From contig CAVYTU010000015.1 in NCBI GenBank assembly GCA_963771465.1, positions 960,001 through 1,024,000 on the forward strand: a stretch of 64,000 nt of DNA. The letters run 5' to 3'. Position 1 is the first letter of the stretch; the number at the start of each line of letters is the position of its first letter. The position numbers were made by a program, and so were the translations under genes. The stretch comes from an uncultured delta proteobacterium. GTDB taxonomy: Bacteria > Desulfobacterota > Binatia > UBA9968. Under the pieces are notes generated by a model, which worked only from the letters and a program-made list of their open reading frames with translations, did not search any database and was not told the origin of the DNA. Of this stretch, positions 51,861 to 64,000 are shown one piece after another.

Positions 51861-52472
51861 CTAACGCTCGGTTAGCAGCGATCGAATGTCTTTGAGAACT
51901 ACCGCCACATCGGGCGATGGGCTAATAAAGGCAAACCGCAACACTCCATGGCGATCGACGATGGCGGTGAGCGGCGTGTGATCAACCAGCCCGCGGCCTT
52001 TGCGTTTGACCCCGACGCCAAAATTTTTCCAAACCGACTTAAGAGCCGTCTCACTGCCAGTTAGGAATGACCAGCCGTCCAACTCGGCACCGTAGCGCTT
52101 GGCGTAACCCGCTAATACTTTCGGTGAATCGATTTCCGGGTCGGTCGTAACTGTCAGTAGATAGCTAGCTTTTCGTTCATCAACGGATAATTTGCTCTGC
52201 ACCTGGCGCAACGCCGCGGTAATCAACGGGCACACATCGGCGCAAGTCGTGTATGCGAAAGCGACGACCACAACTTTTCCGCGCAGCGTTTTGAACTGGA
52301 AAGAGTTGCCCGCCTGATCGGTGAGGGTGAAATCATCGATGGGTAAATTGACCTGACGGCGCTCGACCAGCTTTACTGAATGAGGTGCGCTCGCGGCACC
52401 GGCTAAACTCGTAGAACTCAAAAGCAACGCAAGTCCAATTGCGCAGAATCCCCAGCCCCGCAATGCGTTCAC
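51861..52472 (-). CDS. SCO1/SenC family protein
   Basis: FTLTDQ, YTTCADVCP (CxxxC), TDPEID, WSFLTG, VDHT. Confidence 0.93.
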   Translation of the reverse strand: MNALRGWGFCAIGLALLLSSTSLAGAASAPHSVKLVERRQVNLPIDDFTLTDQAGNSFQFKTLRGKVVVVAFAYTTCADVCPLITAALRQVQSKLSVDERKASYLLTVTTDPEIDSPKVLAGYAKRYGAELDGWSFLTGSETALKSVWKNFGVGVKRKGRGLVDHTPLTAIVDRHGVLRFAFISPSPDVAVVLKDIRSLLTER

Positions 52473-52894
52473 AATTTCTTCTCCGTCGAGGGTTCATCGT
52501 AACCCAGCACCGCTTCCCAAGGGATGCTGCAGTGAGCGACGACCAGCGCGTCGAACTTTTCCCACCAGCTAATCTGCCGACCCTCGCGGCTCAAAAAGCG
52601 AACCATTTGAAGCATGTCGTTGATTTCGGAAGCACTCAGCGCCGGCTCGAACGCTGGCATTAACCCTTTTCCGTCCGCGATCAGCCGACGAATTTGCGGA
52701 TTGCTCTTACGCTCCACCGTGTCGCGAAAGTCCGGTGGCACAGCAGGCAAAGAGGCTGCCAGCGGTCCATCGCCACGACCGCTTATGCCATGGCAATTTA
52801 GACAACGCTGCGCATAAACCGCGTCCATCCGTTGGTTGCGACCGCACCCCACCAAAAGCGTAGTTAGGACAAGGCAGCAATTAAATAATCGCAT
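52469..52894 (-). CDS. monoheme c-type cytochrome (probable lipoprotein)
   Basis: LVGC lipobox, CLNCHG..GRGDGP, MPAF; GTGA-type 4-nt overlap with the SCO gene. Confidence 0.88.
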   Translation of the reverse strand: MRLFNCCLVLTTLLVGCGRNQRMDAVYAQRCLNCHGISGRGDGPLAASLPAVPPDFRDTVERKSNPQIRRLIADGKGLMPAFEPALSASEINDMLQMVRFLSREGRQISWWEKFDALVVAHCSIPWEAVLGYDEPSTEKKL

Positions 52895-52966
52895 CACTGC
52901 CCATAAGACGTAACACACGAAACTTGCGCATCCAACTCGCGAACCTGGTCCGTCGTCGTGAACCGC

Positions 52967-52995
52967 TTGACACGATTTTTCGCTTCGTAGTACAT
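52967..52995 (+). promoter_or_regulatory. nikR promoter overlapped by a candidate NikR operator
   Basis: TTGACAC-N13-GTAGTAC; the left half-site coincides with a TTGACA -35. Confidence 0.55.
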
Positions 52996-53014
52996 ATTCG
53001 GCTGAGACAGGACC

Positions 53015-53431
53015 ATGCATCATCTCTCGCGCTTCGGCGTTTCATTGGAAGAAGATTTATTGGCCGCATTCGATCTCAGCATCGGCGGCATGGGCTACCA
53101 GAACCGCTCGGAAGCGATTCGCGATCTTATTCGGGATCACTTGATCCAAAGAAAAGTCGGTCAGAGCGATACTAACGTAATCGGCGTCGTCACCCTGGTA
53201 TACGACCACAGAATTCACCACTTGGGAGATCTCCTAGCCGACCTGCAGCACAAAGCGTCGCTGGCGGTCAATGCCAGCCTGCATATTCATCTCGATGAGC
53301 ATAATTGCCTGGAGGTCATCGTGATTCGCGGCCGCGCCGACAAGGTCCATGAGGTTGCCAGTAAACTAATCGCTACCAAGGGAGTTCAAAACGGCAAGCT
53401 GGTAACGACGACGCCGGAAATGAAACACTAA
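53015..53431 (+). CDS. nikR: nickel-responsive regulator NikR
   Basis: RFGVSL RHH strand, YQNRSEAIRDLIR, LVYDH, LQH, HIHLDEHNCLEV. Confidence 0.96.
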   Translation: MHHLSRFGVSLEEDLLAAFDLSIGGMGYQNRSEAIRDLIRDHLIQRKVGQSDTNVIGVVTLVYDHRIHHLGDLLADLQHKASLAVNASLHIHLDEHNCLEVIVIRGRADKVHEVASKLIATKGVQNGKLVTTTPEMKH

Positions 53432-53447
53432 ATTTTTTTGCACTAAG

Positions 53448-61648: not shown

Positions 61649-61760
61649 CGATGTTCTAGCGAGCGGTCATGCTGGTGACCATTAGAAATTTATGGTTAAT
61701 TGCTGAAGTGCCCATGGTTCTTGGCGCGATCCGTCCCCGCGTCACTAAGAGGGCGATCGC

Positions 61761-62711
61761 ATGATGGAAACAATCCGCAACAAGATGCGTTCAGAGGAAT
61801 ATGCCGTGCCGCTAATCGCCGGCCTGAGAACCTGCACGTTACAAGCAGCTATCATTCTCATCGTATCGTTGTTCGGAAACTGCACCATGACCAGCACAGC
61901 TGCGCAGGCGCAAGCCCCGCGCGATCCGGCGCTCGTGCTGCAAACCTACCTGCGCGCTACCTATGCGCGCGATTTCGTTGAAGCGTACCGCATCATCTCG
62001 ACAGCCGACCGCAATGTTCGGGACCTGAACCGATACGTCCAGCAGCGCGGTCCGTTCGCCGGCTTCACCTTGGAAGCGGCAAAAAAGCTCAGCGAGTCGA
62101 TTCAAATCAAATTCATAGAGCGTAAGGACACGCCAAATCGCATGCAGGCGGTTATCAACTACAAAGTTCCCGACCCGAGCAAACTTTCACCCTTGTTGCT
62201 CAATTGGGATGCCCGCCGGCTGAACTCCTTGGTGCCAGATGAGCGCAAAAGAATTCTTGACACCATCGACAAGAAAAAACACGACGGCTCCTTGGAGATG
62301 AGCGAGGGCGAAGAAAAGTTGGAGCTCGTCAGAGAAAATGACGAGTGGCGGATATTTTTGAATTGGGCTGCCGGCGTCAAAATCCCGTTTCGAATGGATC
62401 TGTCAAAGTCGGCTGACTTGGAGGTGAGCCTTTCGAAAAACGAGATTGTCACGCAGCCGGGCGAGTTGTTTGAAATAATCCTGACTATCAAAAATCGAAC
62501 CAACCAACCGATCACCGCGCGCATCGGCCATGTTGTCGAGCCGAATAATCTCGCTGACTATCTGGATTTCGTCCAATGCGGTTTTCTTTTGCCCGTGACT
62601 CTTGGACCAGCCAGTGAAGAGCAATTTTCCGGAACCTATTTGCTTAGAGGCAGCCTTCCCGAAGGCGTGCGCCAGCTCAATCTGACCTACGATTTTCGCC
62701 TGCTGAAATAA
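61761..62711 (+). CDS. NTF2-like plus Cox11/CtaG-like protein, paralog 2 (start uncertain)
   Basis: YARDFVEAYRIIS..D, WRIFLNWA; PGELF..KNRTNQPI..GHVVEP..YLDFVQCGFL..LNLTYDF. Confidence 0.75.
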   Translation: MMETIRNKMRSEEYAVPLIAGLRTCTLQAAIILIVSLFGNCTMTSTAAQAQAPRDPALVLQTYLRATYARDFVEAYRIISTADRNVRDLNRYVQQRGPFAGFTLEAAKKLSESIQIKFIERKDTPNRMQAVINYKVPDPSKLSPLLLNWDARRLNSLVPDERKRILDTIDKKKHDGSLEMSEGEEKLELVRENDEWRIFLNWAAGVKIPFRMDLSKSADLEVSLSKNEIVTQPGELFEIILTIKNRTNQPITARIGHVVEPNNLADYLDFVQCGFLLPVTLGPASEEQFSGTYLLRGSLPEGVRQLNLTYDFRLLK

Positions 62712-62818
62712 AAGCATGATCAGCTTGGCGCCGCTAGCAGCGCAGTTTTTTTTATGTTTAATTGATTCAACGGAAACGTTTTCCATTTTGCGCATTGGAT
62801 GAATGGGGAGGTAATTCT

Positions 62819-63379
62819 ATGATCCGCCGCAAGTTGCTTGTCGTTCTGCTCACACTCGCCGTCGCTAATATCGCCGCGCTGAATGCTTTGCGCGCGCAGG
62901 ACACGATCTCCGAGAACAAAAAAATTGTCCCGTATGTCCCGTCGCCGCAGTTCGTCGTCGATAAGATGATTGAACTCGCCGGTGTTAAGCCCGGAGATTT
63001 AGTCTTTGACCTCGGTTCCGGCGACGGCCGCATCGTTGTCACCGCCGCGAAGAAGGGCGCCAAAGCGGTCGGCTTTGAGATCGATGGCGATCTCGTCGGC
63101 GAATCGCGGGCGAATATAAAGAAAGCCGGCGTCGAAGCGAACGCGGAAATTCGCAACCAAGACATACTCACCGTCGATTTTTCCGACGCCACCGTCGTCA
63201 CCATGTATCTGCTGCCCGACGTCAACTTGCAACTCAAACCGAAACTGCTGAGTCAGTTGAAACCCGGCGCGCGCATCGTTTCCCACTCCTTCGACATGGG
63301 CGACTGGAAGCCCGACAAAGTCGAACGGATCGAAGGACGAACCATTTTTCTTTGGACCATCCCGGCCAAGGGACGTTAA
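62819..63379 (+). CDS. class I SAM-dependent methyltransferase with signal peptide
   Basis: MIRRK plus hydrophobic stretch and ALRA-Q; VPYVPSP, DLGSGDGR, TMYLLP, VSHSFDMGDW. Confidence 0.9.
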   Translation: MIRRKLLVVLLTLAVANIAALNALRAQDTISENKKIVPYVPSPQFVVDKMIELAGVKPGDLVFDLGSGDGRIVVTAAKKGAKAVGFEIDGDLVGESRANIKKAGVEANAEIRNQDILTVDFSDATVVTMYLLPDVNLQLKPKLLSQLKPGARIVSHSFDMGDWKPDKVERIEGRTIFLWTIPAKGR

Positions 63380-63432
63380 AACGTGCGGCGCGTTGAAGCG
63401 ATCGCGCGCCATCCGCGTCAAACCATCTGCCG

Positions 63433-64000
63433 ATGATCAAGAAAATTATTCTTGCGTCACTGAGCTGCCTCCTGCTCACTTTGCCGCTGCTCTATTGGCT
63501 TAACCGGATCGCTGCCTTGCCGCAGCACGAACCGATTCAGACGCTGACTCAGTACGTCCGCTTTCTCTACGCGCGTGACTTTCGCCAGGCCTACCGATTC
63601 ATCTCTGTGGAAGATCAGCGGCTTAAAAAATCGCACGACTACGTGCGCGAACGCCAGCCGTTTACCGGCTTTGCTCTGGATGTGGCGCGCAGGCTCGCCG
63701 GCCTGATCGAAGTCCGACCTTTGTCGAGCGCAGCGGACGGCGAACGCAACCGGCTCACGGTCGCCATGAAACTGCCGGATGCCAACAGTGTTGCTCCCTT
63801 GCTGCATGACTGGGATGACAAACGGCTCAACACTTTGTCGGCGACGGAGCGCAAGCATATTCTAACCACCATCGACAGTTGGGCCGACGCTAAGAAACTG
63901 CCAATGATCGAAGGCAAAGAAAGTTTCGTCATGATCAAAGAAGGTTCCAAGTGGAAAGTCTTTGTCGACTGGGCCGCCGGAGCACAGGTACAGTTTGCGG
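63433..64000 (+). CDS. third paralog of the NTF2-like/Cox11-like family (3' end runs off the window)
   Basis: Not in the ORF track; hand translation MIKKIILASLSCLLLTLPLLYW...LYARDFRQAYRFISVED...FTGFALD...LLHDWD...IEGKE...WKVFVDWAAG. Confidence 0.85.
   Translation, partial: MIKKIILASLSCLLLTLPLLYWLNRIAALPQHEPIQTLTQYVRFLYARDFRQAYRFISVEDQRLKKSHDYVRERQPFTGFALDVARRLAGLIEVRPLSSAADGERNRLTVAMKLPDANSVAPLLHDWDDKRLNTLSATERKHILTTIDSWADAKKLPMIEGKESFVMIKEGSKWKVFVDWAAGAQVQFA

What the first reader, a model, noticed from the sequence alone, without database searches (positions are those of the whole stretch)
51861..64000. NikR-associated locus built from copper-chaperone-type parts with His-shifted ligands
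Seen: nikR, two similar N13-spaced operators, a TonB-dependent receptor with a His-rich plug, MFS, TonB, a His-rich periplasmic protein, a RAPP ORF, a CECC/CPH propeller, TlpA, three Cox11-like paralogs and an exported methyltransferase, with SCO and cytochrome c transcribed divergently. Known: SCO, Cox11/CtaG, TlpA and DUF2946 proteins are copper-trafficking components, whereas NikR senses nickel. Inference: this is a periplasmic metal-delivery system in which copper-type scaffolds are repurposed (Cys motifs reduced, His added) for Ni or another metal, or one that couples nickel status to copper-site assembly. No Ni enzyme (urease, hydrogenase, SodN) is visible in the window, so the client is unknown.
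Basis: partly seen in the sequence, partly recalled or inferred. Interest (0 to 1): 0.8.

Follow-up and report, generated by a model that had tools for sequence, protein, structure and literature searches.

The report
NikR uptake unit inside copper-chaperone island
In uncultured soil bacteria (Binatia), a nickel-sensing repressor and a metal uptake unit sit inside an older cluster of copper-chaperone-type envelope genes, some of which have lost their usual cysteine ligands; the link between the two is conserved, but the metal handled and the enzyme served are unknown.

Summary
The island runs about 19 kb, past the window end. Beyond the window lie the end of the third Cox11-like gene, SCO, DUF4382, a glycosyltransferase, a methyltransferase, SCO and VKOR. 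No client enzyme is adjacent.

NikR is canonical. Two conserved operators of the published GTAACAC-N13-GTGTTAC kind lie before nikR and before the TonB receptor, and nowhere else in the genome. So NikR most likely represses its own gene and a receptor-MFS-TonB uptake unit.

The RAPP ORF belongs to the CruR/CutF (DUF2946) ribosome-arrest leaders, but has one Cys plus many His instead of CXXC. The three Cox11-like proteins combine an NTF2-like domain with a Cox11 fold. CFCF is reduced to one Cys; relatives in sister families keep CFCF. All SCO copies, TlpA and VKOR keep their thiol motifs.

nikR and the Cox11-like gene lie on one strand within 10 kb in 6 of 6 genomes that hold both. The Cys loss is independent of NikR: genomes without NikR keep the module, and some with NikR keep CFCF.

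Verdict: a nickel-repressed uptake cassette nested in an ancestral copper/thiol module. Repurposing for nickel is possible but unproven. New variant of known kinds; moderate interest.

The parts
51861..52472 (-). SCO1/SenC paralog a, with CxxxC and a downstream His. It is transcribed divergently from nikR.
   Evidence: PF02630, E 2.9e-26. CxxxC plus His is kept in 56 of 56 homologs. The pair stays beside the module in a genome without NikR (L151).
52469..52894 (-). Mono-haem c-type cytochrome, probably a lipoprotein.
   Evidence: PF13442, E 5.2e-10. The CLNCH motif and a lipobox-like LLVGC were seen by inspection. It is divergent from nikR in 34 of 36 related loci with enough flank.
52967..52993 (.). 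NikR operator 1 (TTGACAC-N13-GTAGTAC). It overlaps a -35-like TTGACA, 22 bp before the nikR ATG.
   Evidence: Conserved at the same place in 6 of 6 related genomes. PWM score 24.3; one of three shuffles of a 1.27-Mb contig reached 22.6.
53015..53431 (+). nikR: ribbon-helix-helix domain plus a nickel-binding C-domain.
   Evidence: NF003381, 171.7 bits (cut-off 105), with PF08753 and PF01402. His79, His90, His92 and Cys98 align to identical residues of P. horikoshii NikR 2bj1, E 6.4e-35. It is the only NikR_C hit in the genome.
53448..53474 (.). NikR operator 2 (GTAACAC-N13-ATACTAT), 19 bp before the receptor ATG.
   Evidence: Conserved in 7 of 7 related genomes. It is the top PWM hit of the genome at 38.9; the next non-locus hit scores 15.2. 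It is the same half-site type as the published reversed NikR signal (PMC545781).
53493..55538 (+). TonB-dependent receptor with a His-rich plug.
   Evidence: PF07715 and PF00593. Six plug His are conserved in 16-20 of 21 orthologs. There is no specific NCBIfam or PDB relative.
55634..56866 (+). MFS permease, the presumed inner-membrane step of uptake.
   Evidence: PF07690, E 3.2e-49. Cys22, His25, His29, His122, His144, Cys186, Cys216 and His248 are invariant in 12 sequences. It lacks the CcoA-type HxxxM, and MxxxM occurs only at the C-terminus.
56888..57664 (+). TonB.
   Evidence: PF03544, E 3.3e-18.
57855..58271 (+). Exported His-rich Ig-like protein ('Hisperi').
   Evidence: His84, His86, His112, His123, Asp90, Asp122 and Glu126 are invariant in 12 homologs. 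There are weak BiPBP_C and Big_7 hits. It is fused to CopD (PF05425, E 6.6e-19) in 2 of 12 homologs. It recurs directly before Cox11-like genes.
58339..58734 (+). DUF2946/CruR/CutF-type leader ORF ending in SQRAPP. It has one Cys and 12 His.
   Evidence: PF11162: the window copy gives E 0.072 over profile positions 5-117 of 117; 4 of 7 orthologs match, best 1.9e-5. PHRVHH, DC and SQRAPP are invariant. Cys lies 47 residues before RAPP in 9 of 9 sequences with RAPP.
58735..58870 (+). Structured spacer between the leader and the propeller gene. The propeller's Shine-Dalgarno pairs with bases just after the leader stop codon.
   Evidence: Fold z-score -4.06, with 0 of 200 shuffles as stable. Mean P(unpaired) of the SD is 0.18, against 0.40 overall. 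The structure is not conserved across orthologs.
58871..60190 (+). Lipoprotein beta-propeller (BNR/sialidase-like fold) with a CxCC...CPH motif.
   Evidence: PF13088, E 1.7e-9. The model has pLDDT 89.3, and its PDB matches are generic propellers. Cys235, 237, 238 and 294 (439-aa numbering) are invariant in 47 sequences down to 24% identity.
60187..60732 (+). TlpA/ResA-like periplasmic thiol-disulfide oxidoreductase.
   Evidence: PF00578, E 3.6e-28; ResA subfamily, E 2.7e-33. WCDPC is present in 10 of 11 homologs.
60767..61648 (+). Cox11-like paralog 1 (anchor, NTF2-like domain, Cox11 fold; ECGLL in place of CFCF).
   Evidence: PF04442, 20.8 bits, below the cut-off of 25. It is 40% identical to paralog 2. 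See the alignment.
61761..62711 (+). Cox11-like paralog 2 (QCGFL in place of CFCF).
   Evidence: PF04442, 33.1 bits. The model has pLDDT 89.5. Residues 202-316 match apoCox11 with Z 11.6, rmsd 2.5 A over 114 residues. Residues 52-201 are NTF2-like, Z about 8.
62819..63379 (+). Class I SAM methyltransferase with an N-terminal signal- or anchor-like segment.
   Evidence: Several methyltransferase Pfam families match. The protein-lysine N-methyltransferase model gives 135.9 bits, below its cut-off of 200. Its position among the Cox11-like genes is conserved.
63433..64000 (+). Cox11-like paralog 3 (ECALL). It continues 320 bp beyond the window.
   Evidence: The full ORF is L009:12434-13321, with PF04442 at 36.2 bits. 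SCO, DUF4382, PMT_2, a methyltransferase (-), SCO and VKOR-thioredoxin follow.

Best explanation
The locus is a roughly 19-kb envelope metal-handling island of soil Binatia, made of two nested units.

Unit 1 comprises nikR, two operators, and the TonB-dependent receptor, MFS permease and TonB. It is a nickel-repressed uptake cassette. Ni-NikR binds operators that overlap the promoter-like elements of nikR and of the receptor gene, and shuts off import of nickel or a nickel chelate across both membranes.

Unit 2 comprises the divergent cytochrome c-SCO pair, the His-rich exported protein, the RAPP leader, the CxCC propeller lipoprotein, TlpA, three NTF2-Cox11 proteins, a methyltransferase, two more SCO genes, DUF4382 and VKOR-thioredoxin. 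It is older. It descends from an importer-Cox11(CFCF)-DUF4382-SCO-VKOR cluster found across the order. It most likely handles copper and thiol chemistry for envelope cuproenzymes such as the two haem-copper oxidases.

Inside unit 2, the RAPP leader acts as a metal-sensing ribosome-arrest switch for the genes behind it. Its sensor has moved from CXXC to one Cys plus His.

Shown: gene identities, operators, motif states, folds, synteny.
Inferred: repression by Ni, the transported species, arrest, the metal of unit 2, and whether unit 2 is read through from the NikR-controlled promoter.
For: NikR and its sites:
- NikR is canonical.
- The two operators are conserved in 6-7 related genomes. They are the only strong PWM hits in 6.9 Mb.
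- They match the published NikR half-sites at N13 spacing (PMC545781, passages read).
- Sites of the same type that were not used for training lie between nikR and the next gene in 3 of 3 genomes of a sister family.

Ancestry of unit 2:
- Orthologs in two sister families keep CFCF and the order Cox11-like, DUF4382, SCO, VKOR. In one family they are fused to DUF4382.
- A genome without NikR has cytochrome c-SCO directly facing methyltransferase, Cox11-like, SCO, DUF4382, SCO, VKOR, with no nikR or importer between them (L151). This fits a cassette inserted into an older locus.

Copper and thiol character:
- CxxxC plus His is kept in 56/56, 34/34 and 25/25 SCO homologs, and WCDPC in 10/11 TlpA homologs.
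- The His-rich protein is fused to CopD in 2 of 12 homologs.
- The genome has 2 COX1 genes and no Cox11 other than these three.

Leader:
- DUF2946 match, invariant SQRAPP and fixed Cys-to-RAPP spacing.
- The mechanism is known for CruR and CutF (PMC9426467 and bioRxiv 10.1101/2025.02.05.636593, passages read; PMC12992588, abstract).

Linkage: 6 of 6 genomes with both genes.
Against: - Nothing measured shows which metal any part binds.
- His-rich features in the receptor plug, MFS, exported protein and leader, together with the loss of CFCF, would also fit Ni(II) or Zn(II).
- The persistent linkage of nikR with the module, despite importer swaps (receptor-MFS-TonB, MFS plus ZnuABC-like, ZnuABC-like alone), suggests more than chance adjacency.
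- No terminator-like site was found between tonB and the next gene, so unit 2 may be under NikR control by read-through.
- No classical Ni enzyme was found that would explain a Ni importer. The Ni-SOD control was silent, so that search says nothing.
- The score of operator 1 (24.3) is close to the best shuffle (22.6).
- The genomes are kin, so shared synteny is partly inheritance.
Confidence: 0.5

Rival explanations
1. The whole island is one NikR-governed periplasmic delivery system in which copper-type scaffolds (Cox11, DUF2946 leader, SCO) are repurposed for nickel or another non-copper metal. It would serve an unknown envelope client.
For: - nikR and the Cox11-like gene are linked in 6 of 6 genomes with both, across importer swaps.
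- CFCF is reduced to one Cys in 56 of 59 aligned Cox11-like proteins.
- The leader has one Cys plus 8-17 His instead of CXXC.
- Published bioinformatics ties His-only CutF-like leaders to HupE/UreJ Ni/Co transporters (PMC9973294, passage read).
- His is conserved in the receptor plug, MFS and exported protein.
- No hydrogenase, urease, CODH or LarA was found that would otherwise explain NikR.
Against: - Cys loss is independent of NikR. The counts are 3/3/2/2 genomes in the four classes.
- Three NikR+ genomes keep CFCF, and two NikR- genomes have the single-Cys form.
- All SCO paralogs, TlpA and VKOR keep the thiol motifs typical of copper and disulfide handling.
- No NikR site lies before the His-rich protein, leader or propeller genes in any locus scanned.
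- Some relatives have a CopD fusion.
Confidence: 0.2
2. There is no functional link. A nickel uptake cassette merely landed beside a housekeeping oxidase-assembly cluster in an ancestor, and the neighbourhood is inherited.
For: - Genomes without NikR keep the module (L151, L152 and family f3).
- The only NikR sites flank nikR itself.
- All genomes belong to one order, and NikR is patchy (9 of 121 genomes of the class).
- In several loci, 3-5 kb of other genes separate tonB from the module.
Against: - Linkage survived replacement of the importer type and several rearrangements in 5 genera, always on the same strand.
- In the sister family the NikR-controlled ZnuABC-like genes run straight into the Cox11 gene with a gap of about 100 bp.
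- An importer also sits before the Cox11 gene in NikR-less family f3. This points to a functional importer-chaperone pairing.
Confidence: 0.2
3. The uptake unit feeds the chaperones. The receptor and MFS (or ZnuABC-like system) import the same metal that the Cox11/SCO proteins deliver, probably copper. The NikR homolog would gate this supply, either sensing that metal or coupling nickel status to copper-site assembly.
For: - An importer is adjacent to the Cox11-like gene in all three families, with or without NikR.
- The His-rich protein is fused to CopD.
- MFS-type copper import for oxidase biogenesis is known (CcoA; PMC6362234, abstract only, from the listing).
Against: - NikR keeps all four residues that align with the Ni site of solved NikR, and its operator is the known NikR type.
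- The MFS lacks the CcoA-type HxxxM, and MxxxM occurs only at its C-terminus.
- The ZnuABC-type family is not known for copper (recalled).
Confidence: 0.1

Closest known systems
NikR-repressed nickel uptake: E. coli nikABCDE, delta-proteobacterial nikMNQO, and H. pylori NikR with the TonB-dependent FrpB4/FecA3
   Same: A ribbon-helix-helix plus NikR_C regulator. A 27-bp palindrome with GTAACAC/GTGTTAC half-sites at N13 lies just upstream of an uptake operon and of nikR itself. The outer-membrane step depends on TonB, as in H. pylori (recalled; abstracts listed).
   Different: The inner-membrane partner is an MFS permease, or a ZnuABC-like system in sister genera, rather than NikABCDE, NikMNQO or NiCoT. 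The cassette sits inside a copper-chaperone-type island. No classical Ni enzyme was found in the genome.
CruR (Bp2923) of Bordetella pertussis and CutF of Rhodobacter capsulatus (DUF2946 arrest-peptide leaders)
   Same: A small exported or membrane ORF with a C-terminal RAPP three residues before the stop. The spacing from the metal-binding Cys to RAPP is fixed at 44 or 47 residues, against 45 in CruR. It sits upstream of metal-homeostasis genes.
   Different: The CXXC/CxxxC hallmark is absent: there is one invariant Cys, an invariant PHRVHH and a His-rich linker. The genes behind it are a CxCC propeller, TlpA and Cox11-like proteins, rather than a TonB receptor or a multicopper oxidase. The leader is not the first gene of its unit. 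The window copy is below the Pfam cut-off.
Cox11/CtaG CuB chaperone (S. meliloti apoCox11, PDB 1so9/1sp0)
   Same: The same Ig-like fold (Z 11.6, rmsd 2.5 A, 23% identity). It has a membrane anchor and SCO as a neighbour. Orthologs in sister families keep CFCF.
   Different: An NTF2-like domain of about 150 residues is inserted before the Cox11 domain. The gene is present in three copies. CFCF is replaced by C-[GA]-[LF]-L, keeping only the first Cys plus an invariant upstream His.
SCO1/SenC with TlpA (CuA assembly in Bradyrhizobium and Rhodobacter; recalled)
   Same: The SCO fold with CxxxC plus His, and a TlpA-type WCxxC reductase in the same locus.
   Different: There are three SCO paralogs, one paired with a c-type cytochrome. 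A VKOR-thioredoxin fusion closes the cluster. No oxidase subunit genes are adjacent.
CopC-CopD / YcnJ copper import
   Same: A periplasmic metal-binding beta-sandwich is fused to or placed beside a CopD membrane domain in 2 of 12 homologs.
   Different: The soluble domain is not CopC. It has no CopC Pfam hit, and the only PDB similarity (E 0.21) covers the signal peptide. Its conserved ligand candidates are four His plus acidic residues.

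Membership tests
NikR | N-terminal ribbon-helix-helix domain plus C-terminal NikR_C domain | tested here: met
   PF01402, E 4e-8, and PF08753, E 7.4e-26. NF003381 scores 171.7 bits, over its cut-off of 105.
NikR | High-affinity square-planar Ni site (three His and one Cys) | tested here: met
   His79, His90, His92 and Cys98 align to identical residues in 2bj1 and in H. pylori NikR. 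That these positions are the ligands is recalled, not taken from a call.
NikR | Palindromic operator of about 27 bp with N13/14 spacing upstream of uptake genes | tested here: met
   Two conserved sites. Independent sites occur in a sister family. The published consensus is in PMC545781.
NikR | Ni-dependent DNA binding and repression | not testable with these tools
   This needs EMSA or reporter assays.
DUF2946 / CruR / CutF arrest leaders | Match to Pfam PF11162 | tested here: inconclusive
   The window copy gives E 0.072 and 14.3 bits (cut-off 23.7), but aligns over profile positions 5-117 of 117. Four of 7 orthologs match, best E 1.9e-5.
DUF2946 / CruR / CutF arrest leaders | C-terminal RAPP arrest motif a few residues before the stop | tested here: met
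   SQRAPP is invariant in 7 of 7 aligned sequences and lies 2 residues before the stop. RAPP is present in 9 of 10 sequences. The tenth, L032, is from an assembly with many broken genes.
DUF2946 / CruR / CutF arrest leaders | CXXC (CruR) or CxxxC (CutF) metal-binding motif | tested here: not met
   There is a single invariant Cys78 in a D-C-x-V-L context, and no second Cys at +3 or +4.
DUF2946 / CruR / CutF arrest leaders | Conserved spacing of about 45 residues between the Cys motif and RAPP | tested here: met
   There are 47 residues from Cys78 to RAPP in 9 of 9 sequences, or 44 if Cys78 stands for the first Cys of CXXC. CruR has 45, with 1-2 tolerated (PMC9426467).
DUF2946 / CruR / CutF arrest leaders | N-terminal export signal or membrane segment | tested here: inconclusive
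   A hydrophobic stretch at residues 14-29 was seen by inspection. No signal-peptide predictor was available.
DUF2946 / CruR / CutF arrest leaders | Ribosome arrest that controls the downstream gene | not testable with these tools
   There are only hints. The spacer is stable (z -4.06) and the SD is paired in the window. The same holds in 1 other of the 7 orthologs (L040). No conserved structure was found.
Cox11 / CtaG | Match to PF04442 over the cut-off | tested here: met
   Paralog 2 scores 33.1 bits and paralog 3 scores 36.2 bits (cut-off 25). Paralog 1 scores 20.8, below the cut-off.
Cox11 / CtaG | Cox11 Ig-like fold | tested here: met
   VIA gives Z 11.6, rmsd 2.5 A and 114 aligned residues to 1sp0. 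Foldseek gives TM 0.70 to 1so9.
Cox11 / CtaG | CFCF copper-binding motif | tested here: not met
   ECGLL, QCGFL and ECALL occur in the three paralogs. Of 59 aligned relatives, 56 have a single Cys and 3 (family f2) have CFCF.
SCO1 / SenC | Thioredoxin-like fold with CxxxC and a distal His | tested here: met
   PF02630 matches three paralogs. The motif is present in 56/56, 34/34 and 25/25 homologs.
TlpA / ResA thiol-disulfide oxidoreductases | Thioredoxin fold with WCxxC and an export signal | tested here: met
   ResA subfamily, E 2.7e-33; the TlpA equivalog gives E 9.2e-17, below its cut-off. WCDPC is present. The signal was seen by inspection.
CalT (CcoA-like MFS copper importers) | MxxxM in TMH7 and HxxxM in TMH8 | tested here: not met
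   There is no HxxxM anywhere, and MxxxM occurs only at residues 392 and 396 near the C-terminus. The motif definition comes from the abstracts of PMC6362234 and PMC8406296, seen in the listing.
Sialidase / BNR propellers | Beta-propeller fold with BNR repeats | tested here: met
   PF13088, E 1.7e-9. Foldseek matches sialidases and a rhamnose-glucuronate lyase at E 1e-11 to 1e-13. Catalytic residues were not examined, so no enzyme activity is claimed.
CopC | CopC fold and sequence family | tested here: inconclusive
   There is no CopC Pfam hit. The PDB CopC hit at E 0.21 covers only residues 4-54. No structure was predicted for this protein.

The most novel reading that the evidence does not exclude
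These Binatia lack every classical nickel enzyme that could be tested. In them, a diversified family of NTF2-Cox11 chaperones that lost the Cu(I)-type CFCF site works with a His-rich periplasmic protein and a CxCC propeller lipoprotein. Together they form a nickel (or other non-copper) insertion pathway for an undescribed envelope metalloenzyme. The pathway is controlled at two levels: by cytoplasmic Ni through NikR, and by periplasmic metal through a Cys/His-type RAPP arrest leader.
Probability: 0.15. Interest if true: 0.8.

Novelty: new variant of a known kind. Interest (0 to 1): 0.55.

Why it matters
Binatia are abundant, uncultured soil bacteria, and their metal economy is unknown. This locus links a textbook nickel sensor to the machinery normally used for copper sites.

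It contains three things worth testing:
- A RAPP arrest leader whose sensor has shifted from CXXC to Cys plus His. This would be a natural test of how the family achieves metal specificity.
- A triplicated Cox11 family without CFCF, in a genome that has haem-copper oxidases but no other Cox11. This raises the question of how CuB is inserted there.
- A widespread CxCC...CPH propeller subfamily of unknown function, paired here with TlpA.

If the nickel reading were right, it would point to an undescribed extracytoplasmic nickel client. If the copper reading is right, it shows how uptake cassettes for one metal become nested in the handling locus of another.

Tried and rejected
- Complex prediction of the His-rich protein (residues 45-138) with Cox11-like paralog 2 (residues 50-316) gave no verdict: score 0.01 against a mark of 0.32. 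It says nothing either way.
- The consensus structure of the leader-propeller spacer across 8 sequences gave only 3 pairs and no covariation. In single folds, the SD pairs near the leader stop in the window and L040 only.
- The simple promoter and terminator scan found nothing useful inside the locus. It found 4 promoter-like sites against 6.3 expected, and 19 terminator-like sites against 17.7 expected.
- PDB sequence searches of the His-rich protein and the propeller gave nothing significant. The receptor matches only generic plug regions.
- The protein atlas gave only hypothetical proteins of Binatota and Nitrospirota for the His-rich protein, plus DUF6130 at 0.86 as a lead.
- Searches for propeller relatives' loci with alignments A6 and A7 were not possible. 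With one Acidobacteria relative, 4 loci were found. Their neighbourhoods differ, and TlpA-like is adjacent in only 1 of 4.
- RNA-library contigs of 4 runs cover parts of the locus. X16 covers 27 of 30 bins, and one contig bridges Cox11-like 2 and the methyltransferase gene. Another covers the tonB end plus the spacer, with only 12 nt on the tonB side. These are unstranded contigs, DNA carry-over was not excluded, and no silent control stretch was laid. I do not count this as proof of transcription or co-transcription.
- The CcoA-type copper importer idea for the MFS was rejected on motifs.
- Literature searches for DUF4382 (1 unrelated paper) and for Binatia/Binatota with nickel or NikR found no description of this locus.
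- The scan's own notes had nothing on this genome or on the Cox11-like sequence.

Full report
**What is there.** The window is contig 15, bases 960001-1024000, of a 6.9-Mb assembly that is 99.4% complete. Record titles of the closest relatives name Candidatus Binatia or 'uncultured delta proteobacterium' soil MAGs. On the minus strand lie an SCO1/SenC gene and a c-type cytochrome gene. On the plus strand lie:
- nikR;
- a TonB-dependent receptor;
- an MFS permease;
- TonB;
- a 138-aa exported His-rich protein;
- a 131-aa ORF ending in SQRAPPRV;
- a BNR-type propeller with CECC and CPH;
- a TlpA/ResA-like thioredoxin (WCDPC);
- two Cox11-like genes;
- a SAM methyltransferase with a hydrophobic N-terminus;
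- a third Cox11-like gene that runs off the window.

I read on in the contig. The third paralog ends 320 bp past the window. It is followed by SCO, DUF4382, a PMT_2 glycosyltransferase, a methyltransferase on the other strand, a third SCO and a VKOR-thioredoxin fusion. Both flanks are housekeeping genes: ZapA, RNase Y and TyrRS on one side, QueC and BatA-type genes on the other. So the island is about 19 kb and has no metalloenzyme client beside it.

**NikR and its sites.** NikR scores 171.7 bits on the NikR equivalog. It aligns without gaps to Pyrococcus horikoshii NikR (E 6.4e-35). His79, His90, His92 and Cys98 are identical to the residues I recall as the high-affinity Ni site. It is the only NikR_C hit in the genome.

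I aligned the intergenic regions of related genomes. This shows two conserved 27-bp elements:
- TTGACAC-N13-GTAGTAC, 22 bp before the nikR start, in 6 of 6 genomes;
- GTAACAC-N13-ATACTAT, 19 bp before the receptor start, in 7 of 7 genomes.

Their left halves look like -35 boxes. This is the half-site pair and spacing that Rodionov and colleagues derived for NikR in delta-proteobacteria, in the reversed orientation they saw in Desulfotalea (PMC545781, passages read).

A weight matrix built from the 13 sites finds only these two places in the genome, scoring 38.9 and 24.3. The next hit scores 15.2. Three shuffles of a 1.27-Mb contig gave maxima of 16.9, 14.0 and 22.6, so the weaker site rests on its conserved position more than on its score. 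Genomes of a sister family were not used for training. They have sites scoring 17-26 exactly between nikR and the next gene, in 3 of 3 cases. No site lies before the His-rich protein, the RAPP ORF or the propeller in any locus scanned.

**The RAPP ORF is a CruR/CutF-type leader.** Four of 7 orthologs match Pfam DUF2946 (best E 1.9e-5). The window copy aligns over the whole profile, but at E 0.072. PHRVHH after the hydrophobic N-terminus, D-C at residues 77-78 and SQRAPP at the C-terminus are invariant. The Cys lies 47 residues before RAPP in 9 of 9 sequences that have RAPP.

In Bordetella CruR, a CXXC motif lies 45 residues before RAPP. It senses copper and modulates ribosome arrest and Rho termination (PMC9426467, passages read). 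In Rhodobacter CutF, a CxxxC motif and a proline-rich arrest site control translation of the next gene through a stem-loop over its ribosome-binding site (bioRxiv 10.1101/2025.02.05.636593). RAPP near the C-terminus of small exported proteins is a general arrest signature (PMC12992588, abstract).

Here the second Cys is missing and the linker carries 8-17 His. Öztürk and colleagues noted that His-only CutF-like clusters sit next to HupE/UreJ genes and may sense Ni or Co (PMC9973294, passage read).

The 136-nt spacer to the propeller gene folds strongly (z -4.06). In the window, the propeller's Shine-Dalgarno pairs with bases 3-8 nt after the leader's stop codon. The structure is not conserved in the orthologs, so the mode of coupling is open.

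**The Cox11-like proteins.** Paralogs 2 and 3 pass the Pfam Cox11 cut-off; paralog 1 does not. A model of paralog 2 built on 59 homologs has pLDDT 89.5. Residues 202-316 match apoCox11 well above all other chains (Z 11.6, rmsd 2.5 A, 114 residues). Residues 52-201 are an NTF2-like domain, with Z about 8.

Where Cox11 has CFCF, the paralogs have ECGLL, QCGFL and ECALL. Of the 59 aligned relatives, 56 have only the first Cys and 3 have CFCF. An upstream His and the Cys are invariant. The genome has two COX1 genes and no other Cox11.

**Other parts.**
- All SCO paralogs keep CxxxC and the His (56/56, 34/34, 25/25). TlpA keeps WCDPC (10/11). VKOR keeps CPYC plus WCPHC.
- The His-rich protein has four invariant His and three acidic residues. 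It shows weak Ig-domain hits. In two genomes it is the C-terminal domain of a CopD membrane protein.
- The propeller is a lipoprotein by inspection. Its model has pLDDT 89.3 and matches only generic propellers. The CxCC triplet and the Cys of CPH are invariant in 47 sequences down to 24% identity, from several phyla. The His is the majority residue but occurs in under 90%. Neighbourhoods of four distant relatives differ; a TlpA-like gene is adjacent in one.
- The MFS lacks the Met/His motifs of CcoA-type copper importers.

**Neighbourhood survey.** The Cox11-like gene is found in 35 of 41 relatives sampled, and in 24 of 24 in the genus, usually as 2-3 tandem copies (one of these genomes is unpublished). 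In the class it is confined to one order: 10 of 121 genomes, all in families f1-f3. NikR is in 9 of the same 121 genomes. Six genomes have both, and in all six the two genes lie on one strand 3-10 kb apart.

The genes between them differ:
- receptor-MFS-TonB in the window's genus;
- two MFS genes plus a ZnuABC-like system in another genus (L154);
- a ZnuABC-like system alone in family f2.

Among 38 loci whose NikR is at least 73% identical:
- the cytochrome gene is divergent in 34 of 36;
- a receptor or MFS follows in 27 of 27;
- a module gene lies within the 10-kb flank in 16 of 22.

None of 42 loci with about 50%-identical NikR from other phyla has any of these neighbours.

Family f3 has no NikR (0 of 3 complete genomes; 0 of 6). 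Yet it has ZnuA...ZnuC-ZnuB-Cox11(CFCF)::DUF4382-SCO-VKOR. One NikR-less genome of the window's own family has cytochrome c-SCO facing methyltransferase-Cox11-like-SCO-DUF4382-SCO-VKOR, with nothing between them (L151).

The state of the Cys motif does not follow NikR:

| | single Cys | CFCF |
|---|---|---|
| NikR+ | 3 genomes | 3 genomes |
| NikR- | 2 genomes | 2 genomes |

**Nickel enzymes.** Family searches of the genome found no [NiFe]-hydrogenase large subunit, no CODH/prismane, no LarA and no urease gamma subunit. There was only a borderline 23.6-bit hit to the urease alpha N-domain. The Ni-SOD search rang in no control, so it says nothing. One NicO-family gene lies elsewhere. Glyoxalase I and acireductone dioxygenase were not tested.

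**Reading.** The best-supported picture is a nickel-repressed uptake cassette nested in an older importer-Cox11-SCO-VKOR module. The copper and thiol character of that module is largely intact. It has its own post-transcriptional metal switch. The conserved linkage suggests the two units are used together, perhaps through read-through transcription, but no data show it.

The lack of correlation with NikR and the intact SCO, TlpA and VKOR motifs weaken it.

RNA-library contigs cover much of the locus. They are unstranded and were not controlled for DNA. A complex prediction gave no verdict.

**Novelty.** I found no description of this locus in the searches made. Each part belongs to a known kind. 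Three things are new variants:
- the nested NikR cassette;
- the Cys/His leader in front of a CxCC propeller, TlpA and Cox11-like genes;
- the triplicated CFCF-less NTF2-Cox11 proteins.

Earlier notes of this scan list 65 other RAPP/DUF2946 leaders in varied contexts. The leader alone is therefore not rare.

Noticed in passing
L036-L039 (family f3), e.g. L037:10770-12260: The Cox11(CFCF) protein is fused in one frame to the DUF4382 domain (485-805 aa open frames). This suggests the two work together. DUF4382 has no described function.
   Followed up: partly
L023:18427-19680 and L024:7139-8392: The His-rich Ig-like domain is the C-terminal part of a 417-aa CopD-family membrane protein in two genomes of the genus.
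   Followed up: partly
window 62762-63379, and G000 C17:766527, C18:157322, C18:158232, C15:785176, C6:172498, C15:867414: The signal-bearing SAM methyltransferase has at least six DNA-similar paralogs elsewhere in the genome (66-89% identity over parts). An exported class I methyltransferase would lack SAM in the periplasm, so its topology deserves a look.
   Followed up: no
window 58871-60190 and proteins P0127-P0215: The CxCC...CPH propeller defines a subfamily spread over several phyla (Dehalococcoidales, Acidobacteria, Blastocatellia, Alphaproteobacteria). It is annotated only as 'sialidase family protein'. There are 8750 library hits at E <= 0.001, and the motif was checked in 47.
   Followed up: partly
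window 52910-52936: A third GTAACAC half-site followed by N13 and a poor second half lies near the cytochrome c start. It is conserved in 3 of 6 genomes (window, L040, L041). It may be a half-operator or part of the cytochrome promoter.
   Followed up: no
L037:5207-7677: A DarT-like ssDNA ADP-ribosyltransferase gene followed by an ADP-ribosylglycohydrolase gene (a DarTG-like pair) lies just upstream of the f3 locus.
   Followed up: no
L032 (G020), L040:7018-8343, L045:6933-8270: Several genes of the locus carry internal stops or frame breaks in these assemblies. L032 has nearly all genes in pieces. These may be long-read assembly errors or decay; the two were not told apart.
   Followed up: no
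L051, L057, L081, L084, L086: Contigs with near-identical locus genes (NikR 76-88% identical; one Cox11-like gene 40%) carry record titles naming other phyla (Udaeobacter, Chloroflexota, Eisenbacteria, Verrucomicrobiia, Acidiferrales). This is probably mis-binning rather than transfer.
   Followed up: no
L033:7997-10806, L154:10966-13567: A ZnuABC-type (cluster A-I) importer stands directly behind a NikR operator in family f2, and behind nikR plus two MFS genes in genus g9. NikR control of this transporter class is not something I know to be described.
   Followed up: partly
G000 C14:460023-460745: A NicO/RcnA-family gene (53.3 bits) lies far from the locus, with no NikR site scoring 10 or more nearby in the PWM list.
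   Followed up: no
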